Below, one piece after another: positions 23,783 through 57,406 of a stretch of DNA of 64,000 nucleotides. The position numbers were made by a program, and so were the translations under genes. The notes below the pieces were generated by a model. That model had not been told where the DNA came from. It saw nothing but the letters and a program-made list of their open reading frames with translations, and did not search any database. The first letter of the stretch is position 1. Each line of letters opens with the position of its first letter. The DNA is from Hormiphora californensis. Lineage: Eukaryota > Animalia > Ctenophora. Where the stretch lies: positions 5,642,001 to 5,706,000 of the forward strand of contig CM035361.1 in the NCBI GenBank assembly GCA_020137815.1, read 5' to 3'.

Positions 23783-26700
23783 TTAGTCAACCTCCTCCAT
23801 CTTGGATGCCTCAGTATCGTCTCCTTCCAGAGGTGGGAGATCCTCAATGACCTCCTCACTGGTGCCATCATCCTCAATTCCCAGACCAAGCTCGATCATG
23901 CGGTGGATTCGGCTGCTGTGGGTGGTGGGGTCTTCAAGGGAGAAGCCGGAGGCAAGGAGAGAGGTCTCGAACAAGAGCATGACAAGATCCTTGACCTGTG
24001 GGGGAGTGAGGGGTTAGTTTTACCAGGCCGGGCAAAGGAATCTCTATGGTCCCATCCCTCAATCTCAACCATGGTGGAGACGGCCTCAAAGAAGAAGAAG
24101 AAAGAGGGGTTAGTTTGATATCTGTCCAGATTATTGGGATAGAAACAACTCTTTAGAGTTCTGGTAACAGAGGGGGGGGGGAGACTTACTGCTTTGTCGT
24201 TCTTGTTGTCATCAGCCTTCTTCTTCAGCTCCTTAATGATCAGATGATCAGGGTTCAACTCAAGGTGCTTTTTGGCAGCCATGTAGCCTGTGGTGGGAGG
24301 ATCAGGGTATTAGTATAGTTATTGGGGTGTTTAGGAGTGCGAGGAGTGAATTGGTATAATTATTGGGGTGTTTAGGAGTGGATGAACAGGGTGTCCTATC
24401 ACTTAGACAGCATGAAGTAGTTAAGATGAACTAATAAAAAGCCCCCACTTACCAAGAGAGCTGTTATCTCGAAGGGCCTGAGCCTTCATGATTCGCTCCA
24501 TATTAGCGGTCCATCCGTACTGACTGGTGACAATACAGCAGGGAGAGGTAACGAGCCTCTGGGAGACACACACCTTCTCGACCTTGGCGTCAAGAATGTC
24601 CTTCATGACCTTGCAGAGACCTGGGGTGGAGATGACGGTTAGATGTGGTTCGGAAAGGGGGAGGGTGGTTAGATGTGGTTTAGAAATAGGGGACGGTTAA
24701 ATGTGGTTTAGAATCACGAGATGAAGACCGCGGTTATAAAGGATTTCAGAGAGGTACCTTTAAACTAAGTTAGGAGAAAATAGCTGTATGCTGCAAATGA
24801 CACTTACCCTCATATGTGGCCTTGTCCTCCTCAAACTTCTTCTTGGCGTCTTCATCTTCTGGTAGTTCAACTCCCTCCTTGGTGACGGAAACCAGGTTCT
24901 TGCCTGTGGAGAGGGGGAGGGGTGAAATAGGGATTTTAGCACTGGTTCACAAATTATATCCCGTGGCCGTGGGATTTGGGCGAGTTTAGGTCAATATAAC
25001 AAGTATAACTTTCTCTGTCTCTTACCGTCGTATTCCTTGAGCTGTTGGACACAGTACTCGTCGATGGGCTCGGTCATGTACAGAACCTCGTATCCGTGCT
25101 TCCTGACTCGCTCAACAAAGGCTGAGTTCTTTACGGTGTCCCTGTGGTTAGTTGAGTGGTTAGTTGAGTGGTTAGAGGGGGTTAGTTGAGTGGTTAGAGG
25201 GGGTTAGTTGAGTGGTTAGGAGGGGGGTTTAGTTTAGTGGGTAGAGGGGGGGGGGTTAGTTGAGTGGTTAAAGAGGGGGGTTGGTTAGGTTTAAATGAAA
25301 CTAGAGAGGGCTAGGTTTAAATCTAAAAGATTGGTTAAGATGGCAATGGAAATTATCGGGACAGATGTTTAGAATATTTGAAAACCCACCTGTTCTCTCC
25401 GGTGATGTAGTAGATATCCTTCTGGTTCTCCTTCATTCGGGAAACGTAGTCCTTCAGGGAGGTCCTGGGAGAGAGAGATGGGGTTAGAGACTGAGATATT
25501 GTGGGGTTGGAGACGGAGAGCAGAGACGGATAGATGTATGGGGATATTACCGTGATAAGGGGATGAGATATTAGGGGTTAGGGACATGGTTCTCTGCCAC
25601 TTATTCAAGAAGGATTGAAAGCACATCGGGCGCTAAAATTTGAAGGTCAGCTCCCCCCGTGGAATTTTCTACCATGTGTTTCTCGAAAGTTCCCACAGAA
25701 CGGCCTGGAACGCGCAGCACTCGCGCTGACATTCACAACTTTTCTCACTCGGCCGTTTGGAATTTTCGCGCGCCCACACACACGCGGGGTGTTCATAAAC
25801 ACAGACGGACATACCACATGTTATAACGGCCCCCTAACGGTTGGGAGGGGGACTTGGCAAAATGCCAGAGTCATCAAGCATGGAATTAGGGAAAACAAAG
25901 TGCATTCTTTTGGAAAACTACCACATGTGTTGTCACGCTTGATTTTGGCCCACTGAACCACTATAACTTTAAAAAGAGGGGGTCCTAAATAATTAGACCA
26001 TGGGTGGCGGTGGTAGCGTGCCTCAGGGCTGTATAACTGTTCATACAGTCTTATAGTAGAGGCAATAATTACACTCACCTCCTCTGATTTCTATGAAACT
26101 TCTCCCATGCTAAGAGGTGGCAATAGAGGTTCAAATACCACAGAGTTTAAGTCTGAACAATGTTCGGTTCGTTAATTATCGCTAATTTAAAAACGCCAAA
26201 ATGGCCTAAAATCGCCCTAAGTTCCGAATTGAAATTTTGGAGTTGAGACTCCAGACTTCGTGGAGATGTCCGCTAGGATGACAATATGCACCAAAATCGG
26301 ACGTAAGCCTAAATTCGTCCGAATTTGGTACGAAACGCCGGGTAGACTGAATTTTGGTCACGTGACATGGGTCCAAAATCAGTTTTTTGCCATTTACGCC
26401 TTTCCTGTACGTTGGAGACTAAAAATATGGCCAGTACTTGTCATTTCCATCGCTTTCTGCATCTTTTAAGCCCCCTATAAATATCCCTTACTTCAACGGT
26501 TCAGAAGTGACGTCATTTAGTCCCCTGAAAAACTCTAACTACTGAACCGTTGGAGTAAGGGATATTTATAGGGGGCTTAAAAGATGCAGAAAGCGATGGA
26601 AATGACAAGTACTGGCCATATTTTTAGTCTCCGACGTACAGGAAAGGCGTAAATGGCAAAAAACTGATTTTGGACCCATGTCACGTGACCAAAATTCAGT

Positions 26701-27034
26701 CTACCCGGCTTTTCGTACCGAATTCGGACGAATTTAGGCTTCCGTCCGATTTTGGTGCATATTGTCATCCTAGCGGACATCTCCACGAAGTCTGGAGTCT
26801 CAACTCCAAAATTTCAATTCGGAACTTAGGGCGATTTTAGGCCATTTTGGCGTTTTTCAATTAGCGATAATTGACGAACCGAACATTGTTCAGACTTGAA
26901 CTCAGCGGTATTTGAACCTCTATTGCCACCTCTTAGCATGGGAGAAGTTTCATAGAAATCAGAGGAGGTGAGTGTAATTATTGCCTCTACTATTAATTAA
27001 AAACGGGACGCGAGAGAGAGAGAGAGAGAGAGAG

Positions 27035-31147: not shown

Positions 31148-34100
31148 ATGAAGATTGGTATTATTGGAGGAACGGGTCTGGACAACCCAGACATTATGTC
31201 AAACATCACTGAAATGAGGTTCGAACTTGCCCCACCTGACCCCTCCCCAGCGCAGACCCCATTTTGATCCTTCCCCGGTTGGACTTCTCTGTCCTCTAAG
31301 ACTAAGAGGCCAGGCCAAGATTCTTCGCCCAAGTAGATGGCTTGTTAAATTCGTAAACTTAAGCCATCTTACTCTACAGATATGACGAGTCTCAAAATGC
31401 ACCAGCTAAAAACGGTGAACCCGCTTCGTATGGCGATCCCTCAGACCCACTTGTGACCGGTAAATTAATTGTCAATTCTCCCAGCTTCTATTACTAATTT
31501 AACGTGGCTGAATAAGCTCGAAGATCTCTGGGATATTAGCGACTAATTGAAGCTGATCTTTTCTAGCTGCTAAGACTGCTAAGACTTAGCAATTAACACA
31601 CTTGGTTCCTTCAGGTGAAATCGAAGGGGTCGGTGTGGCACTGTTAGGTCGACATGGTCGGGACCACCGCTTTTCACCCACCAACGTGAACTATCGGGCA
31701 AACCTTCTCTCGCTACGCAACTATGGTAAGTCTAGATTAGTCTCATTATGTGCTTTATAAATGTCCCTCACTTGCCGTGCTAATCATGATCACCCTCTTC
31801 TTATACGAACATAACTCCCACTTCTACTGAGCTTGTCCCACCCACTTCTGCTACTACTTCCTATGGCAGCAGCCTGCAGCAGTAGTCACGATAACATGTT
31901 GACGACATAATGGCATATACAATATTTCAAATGGGGGGGGGGAGTTCATTATCAGTAGCTCTCGTGACTCTTTAACATCTGGTATTTTGTTAAAATCACG
32001 CACTGGCCGCACATGACACACAGTGTGGCATTTCTTGTAATTTGAACTGCCTGCTATCATGGATGGAAGTTAAAAAGGCAGGCACCGTCTGTTTGTCTGT
32101 ATACTGCTGGATTTACAGATGGTTGTTTGGATATACATATCTGAAACTATCATCTCATTCAATATTTATTCCACACAATATATCTACTTCAGAAATCAAT
32201 AATATCTTTGTGTACAAGTAAAACAAGGAAGTTTTAGTTCAACAGTTTACACATGTTTCAATACAATTGTATTTCATCAGAACTGAATCACACTTGTCCC
32301 GTTCCTCCTCGCAACCGTGAGTAGAGCACTCTCCGGGACAAGGACCATCAACTATAATATCTTTGTGTAGGTATATTCCTGTGATTTAATTTTCAGTACC
32401 CACTGCAAGTTGCCACAACTGGTTTACACTCATGTGTCTATTCGAAAAAAGAAAACGCCTTATTTGGTCATGTTACCACTCCAAATATGGTCAATAAACC
32501 GCAAGATTGACGCATGCCATGACACTCCTCACGTGTCACACAGCCAGGGGGGCCCTCACGTACAGCAATGTATCCAAACACATGAGGTCTCATACTGCAG
32601 TTAACTGCCACGTACAGCAATGTATCCTGCAAACATGGGGTCTCATGTGTTATAGCTTATACCCCAAGTAACAGTTGTCTCAATATAGTTGAATTCAGAC
32701 TACGTCCTGAGAGAATAATAATAATAATAAATTATGACATCAATGTCATCTCATATATTTTCTCAAACTTTCTTTACCCTATTCAACTTCATAACCTTCA
32801 AAGAGTTAAAATAAATATATTTATCTCTTACATAACATCTTATTTAAATCACTTCTGAATTTCAATATACGTTGATTCCTTTGCATTTGGCAAATTTAGG
32901 ATTAGAAATCATATAATTCACGTAGGCATCACGCCCGTCAGCACGTAGTTTATCATAAATCAATGAGCTAAGCTCCCAGAATTGGCCATTGGAAGGTAAA
33001 CCAGCTGATGTAATCCCCACCTTGTACTTCTCCAAACGGGCTTTGAAAGCATTTACTGATGGGGCTTCTTTCACTGTCGCAGGTAGCTTGTTCCAGTAGT
33101 TGGCACATCTGTTAAAAAACACAGAGTCACCCTTGGAGTCTTTCAAGATGTTTGCACCACTCCTCGACAAACGAAACAAGTCCTGCCCGTATCGAACCTT
33201 TCCAGTGATGATCTTGTATGCCTCGATCAGGTCACCCCGCATTCGTCTCTCTAGGAGAGTTGTAAGTTCAAGTTCCTTCAGTCGCTCTTCATAAGTGAGA
33301 AGCCCGATTCCATCAATCAGTCTGGTGAACGATCTCTGAACATCCTCCAATTCCATGATCAGCTTCCAGTAACCATCAGTAGAGAAGGTAGCTAAAACAG
33401 CAGGCTGGACACAGTTTCCCAGCAGCTTCTCTATATCCTTCTATCATTCCTTTCAGGGTGTGATTTGATATATATATTTCAGGGTGTGACTTGATATACA
33501 GTCGGACCCCGATTTAGGGACACCCTCGGGGGAAAGGCTCTTGTCCACTAAATCGGGGTGTCCACTAAATCGGGGTCAAATAAGGTTAATTTCCTATATC
33601 GGGGGAAAAAATTCCTGTCCCTAAATCGGGGTGCCACTAAATCGGGGGCCCCTAAATCGGGGTCCGACTGTATATGTTTCAGGGTGTGACTTGATATATA
33701 TGTTTCAGGGTGTGATTTGATGCATATGTTTCAGGGTGTGATCTGATAATTGCAACATACAGCGTTGGATCCTTACGAGAGGACTACAAACCTGGCGATT
33801 TTGCAGTTCTTGATCAGGTAACTAGGTTACTAGGTAACTAGGTAACTAACTGATCTAGAGTCATGTTGAGTAAACTGGGTCTCTCTCGCCCCTTGCTCAA
33901 CAAATAACTCGGGCAGAAAAGAGGGCTAAATATGACAAATTTGGGAAGATGTACCTCACTATATTTGTCATAGTTATTTTCCTGATCCCTGCACTTTCCA
34001 AACATCCCCCTCCCTTGTGTGGAGAATCAATCCAATTATAACACAGTATAATTGTTTCTCTACCTAGGTGATTGATAGAACTCAAAAGCGGGATCTGACA

Positions 34101-37098: not shown

Positions 37099-37150
37099 CA
37101 CCCGCCGGGGTATACAAACTGAAAACACGGTATATTTATCTGGCATGTTA

Positions 37151-40100
37151 TTACAAAGAAATTACAAAAAGCAGGGGTAATAAAAACAATAAGTTATGGA
37201 GGTGATAAAGGCGACCAGCGCCCGATAGTGTCCTTGTCTTCTGGTGCAGGGACGGTCCAATACCTGCAGGAAAATAGTTTTATGAAGCAGCAAATTTCAC
37301 GCGTCGTTCTGGACGAGATCGATATATCAAGTCCCCACGACTGTTTTTCCTTTGGTAACAAAGTTACCCCCCTCCCTTGTCAGCGCGGTGGGGTAATTTC
37401 GTAACCAAGATGCTGCAATTACCTTGTGTGTTGTGTGGTGTAATGGTGATTCTAAACTGTGTATCAGGGGCAATGTTTGCTATGACAATAAAGTTGTCAG
37501 TGATATTTGTTCTAACAAATTCCTCTTTTCCCTGCTCATCCGTACACCGTACCTGCAAAAACAATTTGTGATTCTTCAACACGGATCAGATCTTTTTGGG
37601 TGACAGATCTTAGATCTTAGAAGCTAAAATCAAATGCATTTCTTGTTCGGGTGAACGCGGGGTGAACCCCACATGCATTTCATACGGAAAAGGGCGTATT
37701 TTTGTTCAGAATGGACGACCTTTACTAGGGTGCATGACTATATGTGTCAACTTACGTTATACCAAATGTATTTGAATTGTCAACTTACGTTATACCAAAT
37801 GTATTTGAATTGTCAACTTACGTTATACCAAATGTATTTGAATTGTCAACTTACGTTATACCAAATGTATTTGAATTGTCAACTTACGTTATACCAAATG
37901 TATTTGAATTGTCAACTTACGTTATACCAAATGTATTTGAATTGTCAACTTACGTTATACCAAATGTATTTGAATTGTCAACTTACGTTATACCAAATGT
38001 ATTTGAATTGTCAACTTACGTTATACCAAATGTATTTGAATTGTCAACTTACGTTATACCAAATGTATTTGAATTGTCAACTTACGTTATACCAAATGTA
38101 TTTGAATTGTCAACTTACGTTACACCAAATGTATTTGAATTGTCAACTTACGTTATACCAAATGTATTTGAATTGTCAACTTACGTTATACCAAATGTAT
38201 TTGAATTGTCAACTTACGTTATACCAAATGTATTTGAATTGTCCATAGGGAGCGCTCCATCCAAATCTAATATTCCTGACCCCAGCTATGACATATCTAG
38301 CACGGGGCAGATGACTGGGACGATCCTCTAGTGTGGTGGCAGACACTGAGGTCTTTGGACCACATCCTACCTCATTACACCCTTGGACCTGAAATATATA
38401 ATGGATCATACTTGATATGAATTACAGATCACGGACCTCGATTAACCGGGATTCGCGGGGAAAGTACTGTATGAACTCGTTTTTTGTCTAGGCTATTTTT
38501 TCTCTATCCCTCCGCTAAAGTGTGGATCATACTTGATATGAAAATTCGCGGGGAAGGGGTTTTGACCAGTAAATCGGGGCCGCCCGGTACATCGGGGTCC
38601 GACTGTATGAGCTCATTTTTTGTTTAGGCTATTTTTTCTTTATCCCTCCGCGGGGTATTATATATGTCTGCTACTACACTCCCAGTAGAACATAAAATGT
38701 GCATTACACAGGGGTTCACACCTATAAAGTGGTTACTGCTCTTGTAGTGTAAAAACATGCACTAATCAAATATAACGGCACTGGAAAACTTAGTAGGCGT
38801 TTCCGGCTGTAAATCAGCTCGACAACATGTCGACAAGTTGCCTTTTTGTAAAGCTGCAAGGTATATCGAGAGACCCAACAAAGTGGAATTAATAAACGCG
38901 GACTCGCTGATAAATTTTCGTAATTTCGTATCCGCGTTTATTAATTCCTCCTAAGGTACTTGACATATCGACAGAATAGTTGACTTACCGCTGCCAGAGC
39001 TTTGGCCTTCACTCATTCTCATTTCTTTCAAATAAGCACAAGAACTATGTTAGAGCATTAGTCTGACAGACTCACCGAGAGAAGGTACTTGGTATAAGGT
39101 TGGAGGCGGGTTAGGGTAGAAAACAGGGCTGATTCGTACACTCTCTCCTCTTTAAAATCAAATGTGTAGGTCAGCTTGTAGTAGGTTATCTTTCCATTCT
39201 GTTTACTGCACGTGTGGAATAAGGGGTTAACAGTACGATTAGATATTTACTTTCGTTAATAAATGTAACGTTCTTTCTCTTTTCATTATCTCACTTTTCG
39301 ACCCTTAGGGATTTTCTTCAAATCAAACCTACCTTTTCTCAAGCTGATTCCAGGTGCACACTATTGCCGTGCTGTTTAGTTGGTGTTCACATTGGAAGAC
39401 AGTGGGCACTGCAGAGGGAAGTTCTTCTAGTGTAGTGAAACTGATCCGCTGACCAACAACATCCCCTTGAGAGAATACTGAAGAAAGTTGGGGTCAAACC
39501 GCGGGGACGCGTAAGGGTCATGATGATTGTTACTAACATTTGTTAGTCGTCAAAAACTAGACTCTTAGATGTCAAACGAACGTTCGTTTAACTAAAAGTT
39601 TTTTTTTCACAAATTATAGAACCATCATGTGCCTAAAGACTCTCAGCTCCGTAGTTTACTTTCTTCTAAGTAACTGCACCTGTTGCATAATAGAGGGTCC
39701 CGGGGCTGAGTTTCTGAATCGTTAAACTGGTTTTAAACTCACTGAACTTTAACGCGTCTTCTTTCCATAATCTGCAAGGGAGGTTTTAATTTGGTACTGG
39801 ATTTAGTTATCTTGGCACAAGGTTCGATCTTTCAAGTTTTTGTCGAAATTCGACAAGGTTTTTCATGCATGACATGATAAGTTTCGTTTGGAAAGTTTTG
39901 AAATTGATTTTAGTTTACCTATTTACCAGTCGAATCTCATAAATTAGTGCGTTATCATCTGTGTTGGGTTTCTGCCAATTTAATCTTACTGACCTGCGGG
40001 AATATGAGTCAAACAAGTTTGAAAAATAGAAGCATTTAATTAATTAATCATAATCTCCAAACTCAAAGTGAGAAAAAATGGGTCTACAGGGCAAAAAGTT

Positions 40101-43100
40101 AGAACTCGAATTAGAATTCTTCAAAATTCTCTCAATATATCTTACGTTGAGCTGAGGACAGTATGATTGAGAGGTAAGCAGGTTGATAGAGGTTCTATCA
40201 CTTCTACCTTAACGGGTTCACTAACCATACTACCATCAGCACTCCGGGCTTTTATCTAGACGGGGGGATGCTTTTATCTAGTGGGGGGTTAACAAGATAG
40301 ACAACGATATAATCATACTATTATTAAAGCAAATAGGGAAATGATGGGTGATGGTTTTTTTACCAAATATGGCACAAAATTCCTGGAAATGGCCTTTTGC
40401 ACGTGTTGTCCCTAGAGGGACCCTGGCAACCTGCCAGCTTGAGCCTTAAACTGCACGTGCATCCTTGATTCATCTCTCTGCCGGTTGTGTGATTGATCGC
40501 TTGCTCGATTTGATCTGTTCACCCCCTGTTCACCACGTTTCGTGAACATGACTACTCAACTTCAACACAATCGCCAGACGCGCTGACGCCTATAGACTAC
40601 GTGATAGAATCCTACAAAAGAGGTGATTATTATTCAAAAAATGTTGTCAACACACGTAATAACAAAGTATCAATGGCACTAATAAGAAATGGCAGTAATA
40701 CGTGAAAGTATTTTTGCAAAACGTGCTCCTTCATAAAATACTTCAGGGCCTGGCAAAAGAGGACCCGTGGTTTTTCTGTCGAAAGAATCGCTGTGGTTAA
40801 TTTACCTGATAAATTTACTGATTTAAAAAATTTCAAATGACACTACACTATTTGCATAGTTTACTGTATGACCATTGACCATCCCCGACATTCGCCCGTA
40901 GGGCGAGCGGGCTTACTAGTGGTACTAAATCAAATAAATTGACAGTGGGGGGTTGCTTTTATCTAGAGGGGGGATGCTGTATACAGTCGGACCCCGATTT
41001 AGGGGCCCCCGATTTAGTGGCACCCCGATTTAGGGACAGGATTTTTTTCCCCCGATATAGGAAATTAACCTTATTTGACCCCGATTTAGTGGACACCCCG
41101 ATTTAGTGGACAAGAGCCTTTCCCCCGAGGGTGTCCCTAAATCGGGGTCCGATAATATGTTTCTAGAACAATAGGGGAATATCAGGGGAATATACTAATA
41201 TCTGAAGGGGAAGTTGCTTTTATCTAAAGAGGGCGAGATGCTTTTTTCTAGTCCGGTCCAATGCACACATACCTGATAGTATCCCGTATCAGTTGCAGTA
41301 GCACAGACTATCTTGATAACGCCAATGTTGGTATTTGGGTCCCAGCTGCATTCTGTGTGCCAGCCCTTGCTTTTTGTTATCGGAACAGCGTTTATGAAAC
41401 ATTTCACCTGATAAAGTGGGTTGGTGAGGTGTTTATTAGGAGTGGCAGCTGCCATAAGAATACAATTGCGCCATAACGGTTACCACATAGAGGGGAAGTG
41501 GTACCTTTCGCCCTTCCCCCATGCTTTTGCATTTTGAGTGATGCAAATCTTCTCGACCACAAACTGTCAGTACGATCAGTCATCAGGGGCAATATTATTA
41601 CACACCTCTAAAAGTTGAAGAGGAGTAGGAAGACCGTTTTCGTGTCCCTTTACTACTTGAAATGCAACGGAAAACGTTGAGCCTCCTCTAACGATCTGAT
41701 AAGAGACAGTGAACAGTTTAGTTGTTTGTTTGCGTCTTTGTTTCTTTGCTAAAGCCATTTGTTTGACCCCGCGGGTGCAGTTTACAAGTACAAAAAGACT
41801 GAAGACACTCACGTCAGCCGTTGGTACTCCTTTGTTTATATGAGGTGGTTCCACTAGCGCCAGAATGTAGCTTGCCTTAGCTGATATCAAGCCTAAACTG
41901 AAACAGGGATGGTTAATCAGTTAATTAAGTAATTAACTTATTAATTAATTAATGAGAGCACATGGGTACCTGTCAATAGTTTCACAATAAATGATGCTCT
42001 CTAATTGGACGTCTGTGTACGAATAGTTGAACACCTCCCCATAACAAATGTTTTCACTGTATCTTTTAAATCTGCAAAGAGTTGCTGATAATAGACCCTG
42101 GATGGAAAATCCAGGCTTGGAATGATAATTGTATTTAATTGATTAATTAACTAATTAATTGAGCTATTAATTAACTAATTGATTGATATTGTTACCTGGG
42201 ACTTGAGTTCCCATAGATAATTCTGGAACCTTGAAGCCCAGCTTTGGCATTGTAATCAGCGTAAACTTCTATATTCAGATCTCTACAAGAAAGGGAAGGG
42301 TATATGTTTTTAGTATCGCGTATATATCGAATCCTGTTTTTAGTTGGGAGATTGCTAGAACCCAAGAGTCATTGCAATCCATCTGCAGAATGGCCGGTAC
42401 CACTATTTTGATTCTGTTTTTCGTACTTGGGAGAGCGGTGCTCCCTCTTCAATTATGATTTATGAATATGACAATATGACATACAGTTGTACTTACTGAT
42501 TAGGTTTTATATACATGTATAGCGCTGATTCAAGTTCACATGATTCTCCATTCTTCAACCAGCACCTGATTGATGTTTGTGAATGATTTGTAAAGTATAC
42601 CAGAGGAATGGTTATAATTATGGGTGGGTATGCAAATATGGTTCAAACCGATTGGAAAATGTTTATTTAATTCTTGGTCCATTAATTGAACTTTATTGTA
42701 ATCTTGTAGCTTGTAACTTACCTTACTCCATGTTTATGGTTTAGGAAATAATACTTTACATCCGTTTCTGTGAAATCATCTGGGTCAGGCTCGATTTCAT
42801 CTTCAATTTTTAGCTCAATCTCGTTACCTGACGGAGAGATAGTTACTTTAACTAGGAGAGAGAAGGAGAGATTATTGCTTTAACTAGGAGAGATACGGAG
42901 AGATTGCTGCTTTAACTAGGAGAGAGACGGAGAGATTACTTACTCTGGACACTGCTACCACCACATTCCTCTGTGTCGGCACACCTCATCCCGCAGGCGT
43001 TAGTTGCGTGACATGAGTACATCCCCACGTCCCTGAAAGATGAATCTTGTGTGCAAGAGTCAATCAGAGGCCTGTATTATGAAATAAAGGCCTCTGATTA

Positions 43101-43200
43101 GTTCGCGTTAGCTGTGCTCAAGTCAGGCCACAAACTCACGGGTCGGAGAAGTTTGTGATAAAAAGATGGCCCAACTTGGTGATGGTGTATTTTCCCCCGT
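37151..43200 (-). CDS. GPI-anchored Ig + fibronectin type III cell-surface protein, copy A (5' exons garbled at ~43200-44200)
   Basis: In-phase exons encode Ig motifs (DVGMYSCHATN, ATATDTGYYQ) and three FN3 units (SVRLNWQKP..IQKLSPGTLY; VCTWNQL..NGKITYYKL..LQPYTKYLLSVQGCNEVGCGP; IRFGWSAP..IAPDTQFRITITPHNTQGIGP). The C-terminus is TLSGAGRLYHLHNLLFLLPLLFVISL*, with the stop at 37151-37153. Confidence 0.85.
37745..38243 (-). repeat. 30-bp tandem repeat (~16.5 copies), each containing the exon end and 5' splice donor
   Basis: Minus-strand unit is caattcaaatacatttggtataac|gtaagttga. The first unit is the real exon end (...QFKYIWYN). Confidence 0.92.
40984..41152. mobile_element. CAGTCGGACCCC MITE
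   Basis: Inverted near-identical copy of 33499-33670; right TIR slightly eroded. Confidence 0.88.
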
Positions 43201-46200
43201 AAAAAATCAAACCGTTCAAGGGGTTTTTTTTCCCTGCTCATGGGGTTAAAATCGGGGGGGGGGTAACTCCAGGGTTTGTGAAAAAAACTGTTTTTCGTTG
43301 TAGGTAAAAAAACACCAAAAAAATGACAAATCAAAGTTTAAAAATTTGATAAACAAGGTCGAACCCAAAATAGGGCGGACCCCCCAGGGGTCTTTTAACC
43401 CCCCCCGAAGGGGTTTTTAAAAAGCCCAAATAGAAACCCGAAAAAAAGGTAAAGGGAAAATTTTAAAACACATTTTTTCCCCCATGTTCACAAAAACTTT
43501 TTTGGGCTGAAAAAAAAGGTCACCCTTCCCCCCACCATTTTTAATTTTGCCCCCATAGGGCCCCCCCCCCCCCCCAAAAATTTTTTTTTATTTTAGGCCT
43601 TTTTTTATTTTTTTTATTTTCCGGAGATTTGGGTAATTTAGAACCCCAAAAAAAACCCCTTTTTTTATGCAAAAGACCCCAAACCGGGTGGGATTTGAAC
43701 CCTTTTTTTTGTTTAAAAATACCAAGTTTTCCCCGGGGGGGAGTGGGTTGGGAATAAAGGGGAAAATTGGGGGGGTTTGGGGGGGGGGATGGGGGGGGCA
43801 TAAAAGGGGGCCTGGGGGGCTATTGACCATTTTTTTGTAAAAAAATCTGCGGGGGGTTTAAAACCGAAGTTAAAAAAATTTACTTTAATAACCCCAAAGG
43901 GGCCCCGTATATGGGGGGTTTTTTTAAAAATGAAAAAAAGGTAAATGAACAAAATCAAGGGGGGTTTTTATTTTAAATTTGTTTTTTGGGGTTTTTAATT
44001 AGTAAAAGTTTTTTAAACTGGGGTTATTTTAAGATAATTAATCGGTTTTCCCTAAAACCCAATTTAAGGTCGGAATTTGAGGGGAATAAGAAATTTTGTT
44101 GGGCCCGGGATTTGAGAAAATCTCTGTTTTCCCCCCCCCTTTTTGGAATTATTTAGAAATTAAAATTCTTAAACAATATCACTAATCCCGGGGGATAACT
44201 AAAGATGGGTTGGATGGAAAATTGATGGGACGGAGCCCGAGAATTGGCTAAATTTTGTCTAATATAATGCCCAGGTGGGTAAAGGCCCCCTTCAGGTTTT
44301 TAATTTTTCAAACTTTTTAGGGGCCAAAAAATCCAAATATTTTTCAACATTGGGATTTTTTTTTTCAATTTGGGAGGCCCCCAAATTTGGGGGAATTGGT
44401 AGAAAAATTTGGGGAGTTTATTCATTTTTTTTTCCCACCATTTCAGGTTTTTGGGGTTTGGGTTTAAAAAACCTTCCCTTTTTTTTGTTTCCTTTAAAAA
44501 CACCCACCAGAATGTAGCTGGGCCTTTTTTTATGACCCAAAAGCCGGAAAAAATCTACATAGAAAACAAACTAACGTTATGGGTTTAAAAACCCTTTTTA
44601 ACCCCCCCCCAAAACACTAATTTATGAAAATTTTCCCCCCACCCCCCCCCCCCCCCCCCTCCCCCCTTTTTAAAATGAAACAAAGGTTTTTTTTCTTATG
44701 TTTTTCAAAAAATTAAAAAAAACGGGGGAAAACTGAGGAAGGTTGGGAAAAAAAAACCCCGGCCCCTTTTTGCTTTTTTGCTCCCCCGGGGGAAAATTTT
44801 TTTAAACACTTTCCGGTCTTTTTGGACGAAGTATGTCCCCCCCCCAAATTTTTCCCCAAGAAGTTCCCCCCCCCCCTTTACGGTGTTACCCCCTTGGAAC
44901 AACCCCGGAACCTATTAGGTGCTTTGATAAAATACCAAATAGAATAAGAAAAATAATCAAGTCCCCACACGTTTTTTTGGGTATTTTTTAACAAATCGTA
45001 ATTTTTTGGGGTTTTTTGGGGGTATGGTATTCAAATTTACGGGGGGGTTTTTTTGACAAAAATTGTCCCGTGTTTTTTTAACCCCTTTTTTGATCCTCAC
45101 CGAAAAAAAACCAAAAAAAAAAGGGCTTCAAAATCCAGAAAAAAACTTTTGGGGAAAATCTTTAAAAAAATAAAAATTTTTTTTTGGGGGGGGCCGATTT
45201 CTACGGAAGATTTTTTTGACTTAAATTAGAATATCCGGGGATGGGTTTAACCTTACGATAAAAAATTAGAATTGTCACACGTTAAAAAATTATTTAAAAG
45301 TCCCCTTTAAAATTATTTAATTTCCTTAGTTTAAAAGTTTTTAATTTCAATTGTATACATTTAATTTCAAAAACGATCAAAAAATTTAAATTTTCCTTTG
45401 TATACCAAAATTAAATTTAATTGCCTGTTTAAAATTTATTTAACCCTTTTTTAAAAGTTTTTAAGAATTTTTTTATCCAAAAATTTTTTGAAAATTTAAA
45501 AAGTTTAAAATTTTTGAATTGTCAACTTCGTTTAAAACCAAAATTTTTATTGCAAATTCAAAAAAATGTTTTTTTTTCAATTTTCTTAACCCAAAAATTT
45601 TTTGTTTATACTTTTCCAAATGGATTTTTAATTTTCAATTTTTGTTTAAAAAAATTTAAGCAAAATTCGAAAACCCATTAAATTTAATTTTCCTTTTTAA
45701 AACCAATTTTAATTTCATTATTATAAAAATGTATTTATTGTAATTAAATTTACCAAATGATTTTAATTTTAACTTACTTAAACCAAAGATTTGAATTGAA
45801 CACTTTCCTTATTTTAAAAAATTTAATTTCAATTTCCCCAAAAAAATTAATTTTACTTTTCTTTTTTTTACCAAATTATTTAAAGTAAATTAGGGTTTCC
45901 CAAAAATTTGAAGTCAAATTACGTTTTTTATTTAATTTTATTAGTTTAAAATTTTGAATTTTTCCCTCTTATAAACCAAAGGGTTTTTTTTCAAAATTTT
46001 CTTTTTTCCAAATTTTAAAACCTTCTTTTCCAAAAATTTTAATTTGAAAGGAACCTCCCCCCGTCCAAGTTGGAATATATTTTAGTTTTTCGAACCGGCA
46101 AACTAAATATTTTCAAAAATTTTACTATTTTCTGACTAACCCAAATTATCTAATACCAAAATAAATTTAAACCCTTTTAAAAAAGAAAAAATATGGGAAA

Positions 46201-46255
46201 AAAGGAAAGGTAGTTGTCCAAAAAAAAATTTTTATTCGGAGAACTCGATTCAATT
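43190..46255. other. Homopolymer-inflated garbled segment; degraded echo of neighbouring Ig-FN3 gene sequence (probable low-quality consensus)
   Basis: Abrupt switch to runs of A/T/G/C. There are residual matches to ~47400-48600, to ~36900-37740, and to the 30-bp repeat (ttgaattgtcaactt, tataccaaa at 45270-46030). Confidence 0.75.
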
Positions 46256-46375
46256 GATCGGTAAATGTGTATCTTCGTTAGTGATAATTGTATTTAATTG
46301 ATTAACTAATTAATTGTGTTATTAATTAACTAATTGATTGATTGTTACCTTGGACTTGATATCGTGACTGTTACC

Positions 46376-48552
46376 TTGGACTTGAGTTCCCATAGATAAT
46401 TCTGGAACCTTGAAGCCCAGCTTTGGCATTGTAATCAACGTAAACTTCTATATTCAGGTCTCTACAAGAAAGAGAAGGGTATTATATTAGCACGATCTGA
46501 TTTGATTCGTGATTCAAATTCTGTTTTTCGTACTTGGGAGAGTGTTTCTCCCTAGGGTCATCAGAAGGGGAATTCACTTACTGTTTATAACATGCATGGT
46601 TTCACTTACTGTTTGGGTTTCATATACATGTATAAAGTTGAGAAATAGTTGCTGATTTGTTCACATGACTCTCCATTGAGCAGCCAACACCTGTTAGATA
46701 TTTGTGTATGAATTGTTAAAGCAATATACCAGAGGAAAAAGTATAGTTAACTATAGTTCTGCTGAATCTACATGGTTCAAACCGTGTTCTGGCCCATTAA
46801 TTGAACTTGTAACTTGTTAACTTACCTTACTCCATGTTTATGGTTAAGGAAATAATACTTCACATCCGTTTCAGTGAAATCATCTGGGTCAGGCTCAATT
46901 TCATCTTCAATCTTTAGCTCAATCTCGTTACCTGACGGAGAGATAGTTACTTTAACTAGGAGAGAGAAGAAGAGATTATTGCTTTAACTAGGAGAGAGAC
47001 GGAGAGATTGTTAATTTAACTAGGAGAGAGATGGAGAGATTGTTGCTTTAACTAGGAAAGAGACGGAGAGATTGTTACTTTAACTAGGAAAGAGACGGAG
47101 AGATTACTTACTCTGGACGCTGCTGCCACCACATTCCTCTGTGTCGGCACACCTCATCCCACAGGCGTTCGTTGCGTGACATGAGTACATCCCCACGTCC
47201 CTGAAAGATGAATCTTGTGTGCATGAGCGAATCAGAGGCCGGAATTATGAAATAAAGGCCTCTGATTGGCTCGATCGTGTTAGCTGTGAGTGACCTAAGA
47301 AAGTATGTATCATCTAAGGCTCTCGAGTCAGGCCACAAACTCACGGGTCGGAGAAGTTTGTGATAAAAAGATGGCCCAACTTGGTGATGGTGTACTTTCC
47401 CCCGTCAACTACATCACTGAAATAATATAAATTACAAGTGTGAATTAGTTTGCAAACTCTGCTACTTTGTTGCATGTATTTGAGACATTGGTGACATAGA
47501 CACCTGGCGCGACCACATTTGAGACATGACATTTGAGACATGCCCGGCAGGGGGAATGCAGATCAGGATTCTCCCATGGTTTAAATGAAACAAAAACACG
47601 TCACAAAAAGCTAGATCACACATGTATTTGACTCACACCACAATCCCGTCGATTCTTCTACTCCAAGTAATAGTTGGACGAGGTATTCCCGCCACGGGAC
47701 ATGCTATTACACCCGTCCTTCCTCTTTTGAAGGTTTTGGGCAGCGGCCTAAATAGGTAATCCTGGCGAGGGAGAGTAGTGAAATATTGAAAGGTGAACCT
47801 TCCACACCATCAGGAGGGTTGACAGTAGGATTAGCTTAGGGATATAGGATCTATCAACACAGTATGTGCGTTCTGATCTATAACTTTTTAATTCTCGTTT
47901 AATTCTGTACATTAGTTTAGCTAGGGGGACGGATAAATTTCACCGAGCATTCCGGTAAATCAGCTAATAGAGCTATAAAAACCAACCTCTTCTTCTTTGA
48001 TGCAAAGATGAGCCGCTGTAAGAGCCAGGCTATGAGGTATTATGAAGCCCATTTCCTTTTCTGTTACACTCACTACCATCATGTAACTTCCCTCGTGAAG
48101 GGACGTGGACTTCTGGACGAATAACCTGTGGGAATTATGGGCGGGGTGGGTGGGGATGGGGCGGGCGGCGGGCGGGCGGGATGGAGGCGGGTGGGGATGG
48201 GGGTGTTGCGCATGGTAGTTTGGTAAAAACCTACGTGTCGGTGTGGCTGACTATCTGACTGAAGTTAAACATGATTGACATGTTACAGGTACCCGTTAAA
48301 CAGTGGTCCACGTATAATGGGTAGTTTCTGAAGGCTGAAAATGGAATCAATTGTAAACTGGAGCTAATTACTATCGGGGGCTGATTTTTAAACGAAATTT
48401 AATAAAATTGGGTGCTAAGTTCGAAGATAGCTATTACAATTACCTGGATTATTTTCGAAGAAATTAAATTCGATGGGTTTCCCCGGATAGAATACGAACT
48501 GGTGAAGAATGACTGAGGGAATTAGGAGCGAGGAAAGTAATAACAGAATCAT
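46376..48552 (-). CDS. Ig-domain cell-surface protein, copy B: exons 1-9 (signal peptide plus Ig domain); downstream exons missing or garbled
   Basis: MILLLLSSLLIPSVIL signal peptide, then in-phase exons AFRNYPLYVDHC.., ..IACPVAGIPRPTITWSR.., ..LGHLFITNFSDPDVGMYSCHATNACG... Exons 5-9 are paralogous or allelic to 42196-43200. Confidence 0.8.
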
Positions 48553-49180
48553 ATTGTGGGCCGCTGTGTAAAGATGGAGTGTTTTATAGTACTGCACATT
48601 TAAAACAGTTTATCAATTATCAAACACTAAAAAGGTTCATCAAATACTTTGATACTAGCAAGAGTGATATAAACTAAATATAATCCAAATCATAACCTTC
48701 AGGCAAAGGAAACATTGAGCCAAGTTAGGTACAATTCAGCATGGACTATAATAATAAAGGATGTCGAGTGTCGTGCCACATGTAATATTTAGGAGAGATA
48801 AGAGAGACCTATATAAATTGCATTTGCTGCGAGCCTAAAGCCCCCTGAGTAAAATGTGCGAGCCTCTCATTGTTTTCATACTGTATCTCCAGAGAGGGCC
48901 GTAGTACTAGTCTTTTGTAATTCATTTCCCCTCTTCCACTAAATGTAGGCTACAACAATACTTGGAACTATTAGGACCTATGTCTAGAAGGGCACTACTT
49001 GTAACTTAGGACCTATTTTATCAAATCATGTCTAGAAGGGTACTCAAAAGTAGGACCTATTTGATTCAATCTTGTCTGGCTATATATGACCATCTGTGCT
49101 TATCGAGTGTGAGACCTGGATGTTATACTTCTTTACTTATTTCTTCAAGTAATATATTGCTTGTTTAAACTCTGGAGAAG

Positions 49181-50942: not shown

Positions 50943-51538
50943 GTTCCAGAAATTTAAACCATGAGTCTCTTTCTCTCCCAGGGGAGAGAAAGGGACTCAG
51001 CGCCATAGTTGCCACATACCCGGGTTGGTATGGAGGTTTGCTGAGCGTATCCCATGGTTTAGTGACAAACAAACAAACAACAAACAAACAAACTCTGGAG
51101 AACTAGAGGGGGTGGAGCAAGGATAAACGATACTGTACCGTTGTTTTTTAAAACGAGGGACGGATTGCAGCACATTACTAATATGAACGATAACAAATGA
51201 TATACAGGTTGAGAAAGCATAAAAGTCAACATCTCTATCTCTCTACTGCACATGTGGTGTCATGTTCTGCGATAAGACAATTAGAAATGTTCATGCTGTA
51301 CATGCCGTAACAGACCAAATATTCTTCTATATAATTTTCCCTGCCCGGTTGGATGCCGTAGGGGCCGGGCGACAAAACTTAATACTTGCAGTTGTATGGA
51401 CGATAGTGTCAGTCTAGGATAACCCGTAAAAAACTGTCTGAATAAGCTTATTCAAACTGTTTTGTGCGGCCTGCCCTAAACTGACACTTATAAAAGTACA
51501 TGAACAGGCAGGTGGACAGTATCAGTAAATATCTATTA

Positions 51539-51710
51539 CAGTCGGACCCCGATTTACCGGGATGCTCGGGGGAAAGGGTTTTGCCCGGTAAATCGGGGTG
51601 CCCGGTATATCGGGGTCAAATACCGTTAATTTCCTATATCGGGGGAATTTTATCCTCCCGGTAAATCGGGGTTCCAGTAAATCGGGGCCCGGTAAATCAG
51701 GGTCCGACTG
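51539..51710. mobile_element. CAGTCGGACCCC MITE (TA TSD)
   Basis: ta|cagtcggaccccgatttaccgg...gggtccgactg|ta. Confidence 0.9.
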
Positions 51711-52119
51711 TATTATTAATATCAGGGGCCATGAAGGTACTACAATTAATGGAGCAACACCTACAACACACTTACCACACAAAACTACAATTTCCAATAC
51801 CCAAGGTGTTGTTTTGAGTCGCCTGACCGAAGGTGTTTCTGCTATTCCACAGTTTTGTTGGATTTTTCTCAAAAAGCTTCGTGCCTCATTTGAACATCAA
51901 CAAGCTGCTCTATAGAATCCGGATCTGTATACCACACGAACTGGGGTCTATTATACAGTCAATAAGTCAGGTTCTATGATCATGTAGTAGTATCAATTGA
52001 CCATCTCGATAAAGACGATACAAAGCTTTCAATACAAGTAGAAGTCAGAAGGTCATCTGCATCGAACATGATCGTGAATGAAAAAAAGCACAGCTGATAG
52101 ATGTGTGTAATGTTGAGAT

Positions 52120-55521: not shown

Positions 55522-57406
55522 AATGATGATCTTCCAAAACCTCACAAAACGAAACAAGGAAAATGATGATCTACCAAAACCTCACAAAACGAAACAAGGA
55601 AAATGATGATCTTCCAAAACCTCACAAAACGAAACAAGGAAAATGATGATCTTCCAAAACCTCAAAAAACGAAACAAGGAAAATGATGATCTTCCAAAAC
55701 CTCACAAAACGAAACAAGGAAAATGATGATCTTCCAAAACCTCACAAAACGAAACAAGGAAAATGATGATCTTCCAAAACCTCACAAAACGAAACAAGGA
55801 AAATGATGATCTTCCAAAACCTCACAAAACGAAACAAGGAAAATGATGATCTTCCAAAACCTCACAAAACGAAACAAGGAAAATGATGATCTTCCAAAAC
55901 CTCACAAAACGAAACAAGGAAAATGATGATCTTCCAAAACCTCACAAAACGAAACAAGGAAAATGATGATCTTCCAAAACCTCACAAAACGAAACAAGGA
56001 AAATGATGATCTTCCAAAACCTCACAAAACGAAACAAGGAAAATGATGATCTTCCAAAACCTCACAAAACGAAACAAGGAAAATGATGATCTTCCAAAAC
56101 CTCACAAAACGAAACAAGGAAAATGATGATCTTCCAAAACCTCACAAAACGAAACAAGGAAAATGATGATCTTCCAAAACCTCACAAAACGAAACAAGGA
56201 AAATGATGATCTTCCAAAACCTCACAAAACGAAACAAGGAAAATGATGATCTTCCAAAACCTCAAAAAACGAAACAAGGAAAATGATGATCTTCCAAAAC
56301 CTCACAAAACGAAACAAGGAAAATGATGATCTTCCAAAACCTCACAAAACGAAACAAGGAAAATGATGATCTTCCAAAACCTCATAAAACGAAACAAGGA
56401 AAATGATGATCTTCCAAAACCTCATAAAACGAAACAAGGAAAATGATGATCTTCCAAAACCTCACAAAACGAAACAAGGAAAATGATGATCTTCCAAAAC
56501 CTCACAAAACGAAACAAGGAAAATGATGATCTTCCAAAACCTCACAAAACGAAACAAGGAAAATGATGATCTTCCAAAACCTCACAAAACGAAACAAGGA
56601 AAATGATGATCTTCCAAAACCTCACAAAACGAAACAAGGAAAATGATGATCTTCCAAAACCTCACAAAACGAAACAAGGAAAATGATGATCTTCCAAAAC
56701 CTCACAAAACGAAACAAGGAAAATGATGATCTTCCAAAACCTCACAAAACGAAACAAGGAAAATGATGATCTTCCAAAACCTCACAAAACGAAACAAGGA
56801 AAATGATGATCTTCCAAAACCTCACAAAACGAAACAAGGAAAATGATGATCTTCCAAAACCTCACAAAACGAAACAAGGAAAATGATGATCTTCCAAAAC
56901 CTCACAAAACGAAACAAGGAAAATGATGATCTTCCAAAACCTCACAAAACGAAACAAGGAAAATGATGATCTTCCAAAACCTCACAAAACGAAACAAGGA
57001 AAATGATGATCTTTCAAAACCTCACAAAACGAAACAAGGAAAATGATGATCTTCCAAAACCTCACAAAACGAAACAAGGAAAATTATGATCTTCCAAAAC
57101 CTCACAAAACGAAACAAGGAAAATGATGATCTTCCAAAACCTCACAAAACGAAACAAGGAAAATGATGATCTTCCAAAACCTCACAAAACGAAACAAGGA
57201 AAATGATGATCTTCCAAAACCTCACAAAACGAAACAAGGAAAATGATGATCTTCCAAAACCTCACAAAACGAAACAAGGAAAATGATGATCTTCCAAAAC
57301 CTCACAAAACGAAACAAGGAAAATGATGATCTTCCAAAACCTCACAAAACGAAACAAGGAAAATGATGATCTTCCAAAACCTCACAAAACGAAACAAGGA
57401 AAATGA
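55522..57406. repeat. 40-bp minisatellite, ~47 highly homogeneous copies
   Basis: Unit aaatgatgatcttccaaaacctcacaaaacgaaacaagga, with rare single-base variants. Confidence 0.97.

What the first reader, a model, noticed from the sequence alone, without database searches (positions are those of the whole stretch)
42196..47420. Duplicated GPI-anchored IgSF gene with one hypervariable exon amid synonymous-only divergence
Seen by manual comparison of copies A and B: exon 6 has 4 of 4 synonymous differences, exon 7 has 5 of 5, and exon 9 has 2 synonymous plus 1 A/V. Exon 8, however, reads CWLKNGESCELES----ALYMYIKPN (42497-42565) versus CWLLNGESCEQISNYFSTLYMYMKPK (46610-46690): about 6 replacements plus an in-frame 4-aa indel, with the cysteines kept. 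Inference: purifying selection on the scaffold and diversification of one surface patch, as expected of a self/non-self or cell-identity recognition molecule. Analogies are Hydractinia Alr Ig-like proteins and the contactin-like Ig-FN3-GPI layout. The contrast holds whether the copies are paralogs or uncollapsed alleles.
Basis: partly seen in the sequence, partly recalled or inferred. Interest (0 to 1): 0.8.

Follow-up and report, generated by a model that had tools for sequence, protein, structure and literature searches.

The report
Two alleles misassembled as duplicate gene
The apparent duplicated gene is one comb-jelly cell-surface gene (predicted GPI-anchored Ig-fibronectin adhesion protein) whose two alleles were likely placed side by side by an assembly error, and its odd exon is real but shows only two forms, likely an old divergent allele block rather than a hypervariable self-recognition patch.

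Summary
The base counts are right, and the A exon 8 is no consensus error: short-read contigs match it exactly. It is not a duplicated gene. Only exons 5-9 occur twice, separated by 3 kb of homopolymer-rich degraded sequence. A DNA contig and an RNA contig from other samples join B exon 9 straight to the single exon 10, so B is an allele and A/B are likely haplotypes set in tandem by the assembler. Exon 8 sits in a ~300-bp block where introns and silent sites are also 3-4 times more diverged; its dN/dS is 0.10-0.23, and the 'patch' is best aligned as one compensated frameshift. B-type exon 8 is near-identical in four studies; whole A-type was seen in one. A modest replacement excess remains (p 0.004-0.26 by counting method), so balancing selection is not excluded. 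The gene is a ctenophore Ig-FN3 protein with a GPI-type tail and a distant spliced homologue; it fails the contactin and Alr architecture tests. Earlier scan notes described exon-edge repeats in this genome, not this gene.

The parts
37154..48327 (-). One gene, 20 modelled exons (e2-e21), about 700 aa: Ig-like domains, three FN3, hydrophobic C-terminal tail; 5' end unresolved
   Evidence: All GT-AG junctions, no internal stop with either A or B exons 6-9; collinear with a spliced homologue over e8-e21, 180 of 512 identical
47637..47761 (-). Exon 4, first half of an I-set-like Ig domain, single copy
   Evidence: Pfam Ig_3 E 0.002, I-set E 0.0033, both under the curated cut-off
46250..47420 (-). 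Copy B: exons 5 (47416-47345), 6 (47200-47112), 7 (46931-46826), 8 (46690-46610), 9 (46461-46375); an allele of the gene
   Evidence: DNA contig joins 46234 to 42123 and RNA contig splices 46375 to 42071
46610..46690 (-). Exon 8, B form (81 nt), the form seen in four studies
   Evidence: X2 0 differences in listed pieces, X5 2 differences over 46594-46704 (one silent at 46624, one not listed), X7 spliced RNA 1 difference, X8 last 19 letters 1 silent difference
43210..46234 (.). Degraded, homopolymer-rich sequence: noisy copy of 47938-48673 (at 43618-44220) and of 37116-38260 (at 44672-46249); likely unpolished contig ends
   Evidence: 0.32-0.58 of bases in runs of 4 or more in the six 500-bp windows 43001-46000, against mostly 0.03-0.2 elsewhere; local alignments above a reversed-query control; skipped by contig joints
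42135..43210 (-). Copy A: 3' part of exon 5, exons 6 (43032-42944), 7 (42827-42722), 8 (42565-42497), 9 (42282-42196); likely the second allele
   Evidence: exact 560-bp contig in X1 and X2
42497..42565 (-). Exon 8, A form (69 nt): three codon replacements, five silent changes, and a net 12-nt loss best aligned as +2 and -14 nt
   Evidence: five gap settings; whole exon seen only in runs X1, X2, X4
42314..42630 (-). Block of deep A/B divergence spanning the 3' half of intron 7, exon 8 and most of intron 8 (limits set by eye)
   Evidence: 46 of 240 against 35 of 680 mismatches, corrected ratio 4.15
41273..42071 (-). Single-copy exons 10-13: end of the exon-8 domain and the next Ig-like domain
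   Evidence: 15 of 33 and 19 of 45 identical to the homologue in e10 and e13; Atlas features Ig-like
37423..40255 (-). Single-copy exons 14-20: three FN3 domains
   Evidence: Pfam fn3 E 2e-20, three stretches, on homologue P0052; nearest solved FN3 are LAR-type phosphatase and contactin
37154..37263 (-). Last exon: hydrophilic spacer, then a hydrophobic stretch ending at the stop, no cytoplasmic tail; predicted GPI signal
   Evidence: Hydropathy up to 3.2 in the window and 3.0 in the homologue; no GPI predictor was run

Best explanation
One comb-jelly gene for a predicted GPI-anchored Ig-FN3 adhesion protein appears twice over exons 5-9, likely because the assembler joined two haplotype ends through unpolished sequence, and its exon 8 differs between the two alleles likely because allele A carries a short, old haplotype block that stayed under purifying selection and took one compensated frameshift. 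Shown: B exon 9 runs on to the single exon 10 in DNA and in spliced RNA of other samples; both exon-8 forms exist in short-read data; introns and silent sites around exon 8 are 3-4 times more diverged than the flanks; dN/dS is 0.10-0.23. Inferred: A and B are the two haplotypes of the source animal; in a species with about 20% silent difference between haplotypes in exons 6, 7 and 9, recombination leaves small blocks of much older ancestry; exchange with exon-edge repeats in intron 8 may have helped keep the A form. Inferred from architecture: the protein works like contactin, as a membrane-tethered adhesion or recognition molecule without its own signalling tail, and exon 8 likely encodes the loop after the B-strand cysteine of an Ig-like domain, which tolerates length change (12, 14 and 16 residues in A, the homologue and B).
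For: Only e5-e9 are doubled and one open frame runs through either copy. Spacer is a degraded copy of both flanks and starts inside A exon 5. X5 DNA contig of 531 bp: 46234-46448 exact plus 42005-42123; X8 RNA contig: 46375 to 42071 with CT..AC ends, 45 letters on the short side; X7 contig spliced e7-e8B-e9. Contig depths in X2: A 119, B pieces 129-156, exon 10 269; in X1: A 14.9, other exact single-haplotype contigs 14.6-21.8, shared exon 5 41.5 (supporting only, the tool warns depth is no copy number). pS 0.55-0.59 against 0.20, p 0.036; shifted-frame alignment at all five gap settings; Fisher p 0.12-0.26 when counted as events. Listed exonic variants: 22 silent, 1 replacement of 23. Neighbouring HSP90 94% to Bolinopsis microptera, other named animals 77% or less. 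High heterozygosity is on record for a pleurobrachiid, about 3.2% (PMC8527503, passages).
Against: The joins come from samples other than the likely source, and the RNA contigs have depth 2 and 4; no long reads of the source were seen. A replacement excess remains after scaling for silent divergence: Poisson p 0.024 for 3 or more and 0.004 for 4 or more events at the 1:11 background, Fisher p 0.008-0.056 when counted by nucleotide or residue. A narrow peak of silent divergence centred on a replacement-bearing exon is also what long-term balancing selection gives (established population genetics, recalled). A 4.15-fold older block has a 1.6% tail per site under a simple exponential model. Runs were found with the B sequence, which favours B carriers, and the output tables were cut.
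Confidence: 0.62

Rival explanations
1. Same gene and same assembly error, but the A/B exon-8 dimorphism is an old balanced polymorphism: the loop contacts a partner or a parasite protein, and selection keeps both forms while recombination trims the linked divergence to about 300 bp.
For: Divergence peak is centred on the one exon with replacements; replacement excess p 0.004-0.024; A lacks the aromatic pair shared by B and the homologue; A is found unchanged in three runs whose genotypes differ at other sites; an A-like intron 8 with the exon end, 14 differences from A, persists in a second study.
Against: dN/dS 0.10-0.23; only 3-4 independent replacement events; exon singled out after the fact, and only exons 6-9 have a direct A/B comparison; whole A exon seen in one study only; B form conserved.
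Confidence: 0.22
2. A and B exon 8 are not plain alleles but two descendants of an old local duplication of the exon-8 region (exon-edge 'mirage' type), with different copies lost or converted on different haplotypes.
For: X5 contig of 297 bp (depth 125) carries the last 28 nt of A exon 8 and an A-like intron 8 behind a 30-letter piece like B intron 8; intron-8 variants in X5 stand in 7 contigs at depth 565, with a short go-back joint. B has donor-edge copies at 46589 (11 of 14) and 46356 (14 of 14) that A lacks. Mirage clusters vary between haplotypes in amphioxus (PMC3087553, section 16).
Against: The joint rests on 30 letters at 80% likeness. No second exon-8 copy in the window; no convincing exon-8 relic in introns 7 or 8 (best 24 of 500 shuffles among 16 tests). 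An unequal crossover between old alleles gives the same contig.
Confidence: 0.1
3. One reading: a hypervariable self/non-self locus like Hydractinia Alr, with many exon-8 alleles under diversifying selection.
For: IgSF surface protein; indel and replacements concentrated in one exon.
Against: Two forms in 6 runs; B form 0-2 nt different across four studies; dN/dS below 1; no transmembrane helix with cytoplasmic tail, no cluster of paralogues in the window; ctenophores fuse readily (PMC11565835).
Confidence: 0.04
4. A real tandem duplication of exons 5-9 on one chromosome of the source animal.
For: Phases would allow exon 9 to splice to exon 5 or 6 (all phase 2); both forms occur in the same runs.
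Against: Spacer is degraded flank sequence; contigs join B exon 9 to exon 10; single-haplotype depths for both forms.
Confidence: 0.03

Closest known systems
Contactins (CNTN1-6, Drosophila Cont; PMC10084454, passages)
   Same: Ig domains followed by FN3 domains and a GPI-type tail; FN3 region matches contactin-2 at E 3.6e-12 (homologue as query).
   Different: About three recognisable Ig-like domains (perhaps part of a fourth) and three FN3, against six and four; LAR-type phosphatase F scores higher (2.4e-14); the review states contactins appear missing in ctenophores; no orthology test was made.
Hydractinia Alr1/Alr2 (PMC9546547, passages)
   Same: Divergent Ig-like domains plus FN3-like fold on a cell-surface protein of a non-bilaterian.
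   Different: Alr proteins are single-pass with a cytoplasmic tail, one domain per exon, tens to hundreds of alleles, 41 clustered genes. Here: GPI-type tail, domains split over several exons, two exon-8 forms seen, one gene in the window.
Haplotypic false duplication in assemblies of heterozygous genomes (term seen in search listing; mechanism recalled)
   Same: Two haplotype ends of one locus set in tandem, each at single-haplotype depth, reads join across.
   Different: The spacer here is 3 kb of degraded flank sequence rather than a gap.
Amphioxus 'mirage' exon-edge repeats (PMC3087553, abstract and section 16)
   Same: Tandem copies of exon-intron boundaries that differ between haplotypes: exon 19 donor (33 bp, 15 copies), B exon 9 and exon 8 donors.
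   Different: Whether such a copy supplied the A exon-8 end is not shown.

Membership tests
Immunoglobulin superfamily (Ig-FN3 cell-surface proteins) | Ig domain with B- and F-strand cysteines and C-strand tryptophan | tested here: met
   Exons 4-6 carry C, W and the DxGxYxC motif; Pfam Ig_3/I-set E 0.002-0.003 on the half domain, under cut-off
Immunoglobulin superfamily (Ig-FN3 cell-surface proteins) | The exon-8 domain has an Ig fold | tested here: inconclusive
   Atlas features 0.90, Ig-type clusters, lead only; no Pfam hit; model pLDDT 26-34 in this domain
Immunoglobulin superfamily (Ig-FN3 cell-surface proteins) | FN3 domains C-terminal to the Ig domains | tested here: met
   Pfam fn3 E 2.1e-20, three stretches, homologue P0052; collinear with exons 14-20
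Contactin | Six Ig plus four FN3 domains | tested here: not met
   Three FN3 and about three or four Ig-like domains in the model; 5' end unresolved, so the Ig count could rise, the FN3 count cannot
Contactin | GPI anchor | tested here: inconclusive
   Hydrophobic C-terminus without cytoplasmic tail in both proteins; no predictor or assay; signal peptide exon not joined
Contactin | Orthology by phylogeny; binding to CNTNAP/L1 partners | not tested
   No tree built
Hydractinia Alr | Single-pass transmembrane helix with cytoplasmic tail | tested here: not met
   Hydrophobic stretch ends at the stop codon
Hydractinia Alr | Each domain in a single exon; clustered family of paralogues | tested here: not met
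   Domains span 3-5 exons; no paralogue in the window at DNA level; whole genome not held
Hydractinia Alr | Tens to hundreds of alleles | tested here: inconclusive
   Two exon-8 forms in 6 runs of 4 studies; small sample, found with B, tables cut
Hydractinia Alr | Allele-specific trans homophilic binding that controls fusion | not testable with these tools
   Needs cell aggregation and grafting assays
Haplotypic false duplication | Independent sequence joins across the extra copy | tested here: met
   X5 joint 42123-46234, X8 joint 42071-46375
Haplotypic false duplication | Long reads of the source carry one copy per molecule | not testable with these tools
   Only assembled short-read contigs were served

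The most novel reading that the evidence does not exclude
A ctenophore contactin-like GPI-anchored adhesion protein carries an ancient, selectively maintained dimorphism in one Ig loop, with the A form made by a compensated frameshift and held in reserve by exon-edge repeats, so that the two forms bind different partners: a first candidate recognition polymorphism in a phylum thought to have little allorecognition and no contactin.
Probability: 0.15. Interest if true: 0.72.

Novelty: new member of a known kind. Interest (0 to 1): 0.3.

Why it matters
As it stands: a warning that this assembly holds haplotype duplicates joined by degraded sequence, and a gene model for an Ig-FN3 protein with a GPI-type tail in a ctenophore, a layout a review reports as absent for contactins in this phylum (PMC10084454); three text searches listed no paper whose title or abstract start describes such a ctenophore gene, which is weak evidence. 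If the dimorphism is balanced and changes binding, it would give a concrete locus for asking whether comb jellies have any molecular self/non-self or parasite-driven surface polymorphism.

Tried and rejected
Whole genome: not held, so no genome-wide background and no paralogue search. Homologue search with exon 4 alone: 0 of 6 candidates scored. Search with P0052: 1 hit among 5272 candidates, no full-length relative. Exon-9 motif scan of metagenome contigs: 0; scan with P0052: 1 locus of 51 stretches. Two structure predictions on the homologue failed (mean pLDDT 34.6 and 36.9); Foldseek on the second gave no match at E 0.001, its top rows (E 0.02-0.08) being mostly Ig-type chains, so exon 8 was not located on a structure. 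Lack of cover on the spacer (two bins at 0 in all four runs, two bins with high low-complexity matches) is not used alone. Homopolymer-compressed alignment of the spacer was weaker than the plain one and supported mainly the 33-bp repeat part. Consensus error as the cause of the exon-8 differences: rejected (exact contigs). Exon-8 relic in the window's introns: not supported. Candidate signal-peptide exon 48552-48444 ends in phase 1 while exon 2 as modelled starts in phase 0: not joined. Direction of the indel: B matches the homologue in spacing from the second cysteine and scores 787 against 780, but the homologue's whole loop length lies between A and B, so 'A is derived' is only likely. Papers listed, 82 other than those cited were seen as listings only.
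Full report
Observation. Aligning 42100-43200 with 46250-47450 confirms two versions of five minus-strand exons. Codon comparison gives 4 of 4 silent differences in exon 6, 5 of 5 in exon 7, 2 silent and A/V in exon 9, and 69 against 81 nt in exon 8 with 17 nt and 6 residue differences at the best single gap.

One gene, not two. After repeat masking, the only long similarities within this gene are the three A/B blocks covering exons 5-9. Exons 2-4 lie only above 47420 and exons 10-21 only below 42135; a 20-exon model with GT-AG junctions reads without an internal stop using either A or B exons 6-9. The 5' end is unresolved. The last exon of the neighbouring HSP90 is 94% identical to Bolinopsis microptera and 77% or less to the other named animals among the 120 rows listed, so the organism is a ctenophore; earlier scan notes call it Pleurobrachia (not tested at genus level).

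The spacer. In 43001-46000, 0.32-0.58 of bases lie in homopolymer runs. Chunks align above a reversed control to 47938-48673 (from 43618-44220) and to 37116-38260 (from 44672-46249), that is to both flanks of the doubled block; 3 of 16 chunks gave no signal above control and two more were marginal. The degradation starts inside A exon 5. This is what two overlapping, unpolished haplotype ends would look like (inference).

Independent sequence. Ten runs were listed and six laid, all as assembled contigs. A 560-bp contig matches A at 42264-42823 without a difference in X1 and X2, and 447 bp in X4, so exon 8A is no consensus error. In X5, another sample, one 531-bp contig matches B at 46234-46448 exactly and continues into intron 9 and exon 10 at 42123-42005. 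In X8, an oligo-dT RNA run, a contig of depth 2 splices B exon 9 to exon 10 with CT..AC ends; in X7 a contig of depth 4 splices exon 7, exon 8B and exon 9. These joins skip copy A and the spacer. Contig depths fit alleles: X2 A 119, B 129-156, exon 10 269; X1 A 14.9 against 41.5 at shared exon 5, though the tool warns against reading depth as copy number. The joins are from other samples, so allelism in the source animal itself is inferred.

Is exon 8 hypervariable? B-type exon 8 differs from the window by 0 (X2, listed pieces; 46632-46656 not among them), at most 2 (X5, one silent, one unlisted), 1 (X7, unlisted) and 1 silent letter in the 19 seen (X8), across four studies. The whole A exon appeared only in X1, X2 and X4, one study, possibly the source. 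The runs were found with B and the tables showed 40 of 157 and 40 of 64 variant rows, so a third form could be missed. Of 28 listed variants that I entered, 23 were exonic: 22 silent, 1 replacement (V/I, exon 7); I left out five exonic rows that are A/B differences already counted (the A/V change and four silent ones) and other intronic rows.

Selection. In exon 8 pS is 0.55-0.59 against 0.20 in exons 6, 7 and 9 (p 0.036), and dN/dS is 0.10 (18 codons outside the patch) to 0.23 (22 codons) against 0.02. Mismatches are raised over 42630-42314, introns included: 46 of 240 against 35 of 680 columns, a corrected ratio of 4.15, with limits chosen by eye. At all five gap settings the best alignment shown places a 2-nt and a 14-nt (or 12+2) gap around a shared 6-7-nt stretch read in different frames, so three replacements and the indel are likely one compensated frameshift. 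So: an old block, still under purifying selection, with a modest replacement excess that was picked after the fact. A simple exponential model puts a 4.15-fold older segment at 1.6% per site; with a few dozen blocks of this size along the gene, one is not surprising (inference). About 3.2% combined heterozygosity is reported for Hormiphora californensis (PMC8527503, passages).

The protein. A search with exon 19 returned 50 proteins; one, P0038, aligns over 463 residues at 33%, E 1e-80. Its cluster mate's contig L001 is a spliced reading frame collinear with exons 8-21, 180 of 512 identical; exon 8 is 8 of 25 (B) or 9 of 23 (A), no lower than average. Its organism is not given. It has three FN3 domains, nearest in solved structures to LAR-type phosphatases and contactins, Ig-like features in its N-terminal part (leads only), and the same hydrophobic end without a cytoplasmic tail. 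B shares with it the spacing after the second cysteine and an aromatic pair that A lacks. From the cysteine pattern exon 8 likely encodes the loop after strand B of an Ig-like domain, but both folds failed.

A lead on origin. In X5 a 297-bp contig of depth 125 holds an A-like intron 8 and the last 28 nt of A exon 8 (14 differences, 22 gap letters) joined to 30 letters resembling B intron 8, and intron-8 variants stand in several contigs at high depth. B has donor-edge copies that A lacks, like amphioxus mirages (PMC3087553, section 16) and like earlier notes on this genome. This suggests unequal exchange around exon 8, but rests on a 30-letter side, and no exon-8 relic was found in the window's introns.

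Comparison. It works like a contactin-type tethered adhesion molecule (inferred) but fails the six-Ig, four-FN3 test (PMC10084454, passages). It fails the Alr tests of a transmembrane helix with tail and one domain per exon (PMC9546547, passages). Pleurobrachia, Bolinopsis and Mnemiopsis form chimeras (PMC11565835, preprint, passages; supplements not seen), which weakens an allorecognition role.

Verdict. The duplication is likely an assembly artefact (about 0.93); the exon-8 dimorphism is real; an unselected or weakly selected old block is most likely (0.62), a balanced dimorphism possible (0.22), an Alr-like hypervariable locus unlikely (0.04). Interest 0.3.

Noticed in passing
window:37745-38243: 33-bp tandem repeat, 15 copies, 99% alike, whose unit spans the end of exon 19 and its donor site (mirage-type repeat).
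   Followed up: partly
window:46356 and 46589: Donor-edge copies of exon 9 (14 of 14) and exon 8 (11 of 14) in allele B, absent from allele A.
   Followed up: partly
window:39136-39616: Runs X1, X2 and X4, listed as one sample, differ in the variants they carry, and X2 seems to hold three or more haplotypes; they may come from more than one animal.
   Followed up: no
window:44400-44700: Weak resemblance of the spacer to exons 10-11 (41792-42017), barely above control; the spacer otherwise lacks 38260-42125.
   Followed up: partly
window:23780-30770 (-): HSP90 gene with many introns; last exon 94% identical to Bolinopsis HSP90.
   Followed up: partly
window:31150-36140 (+): Exons that look like a methylthioadenosine phosphorylase gene head-to-head with HSP90; name recalled from the motif, no call confirmed it.
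   Followed up: no
window:3619-7210 (+): 936-codon open frame with LDLa repeats (Pfam PF00057 E 1.7e-10) followed by a second exon that looks like the end of a seven-helix receptor (by eye).
   Followed up: partly
window:49181-50288 and 55522-57406: Near-perfect tandem arrays: 455 bp x 2.4 (100%) and 40 bp x 47 (99%).
   Followed up: no
window:7619-7801, 33497-33676, 40982-41152, 51537-51716: Four copies of a ~180-bp palindromic element, one inside intron 13 of this gene; many other long inverted repeats (e.g. 1-900, 9570-10540, 26100-26990).
   Followed up: no
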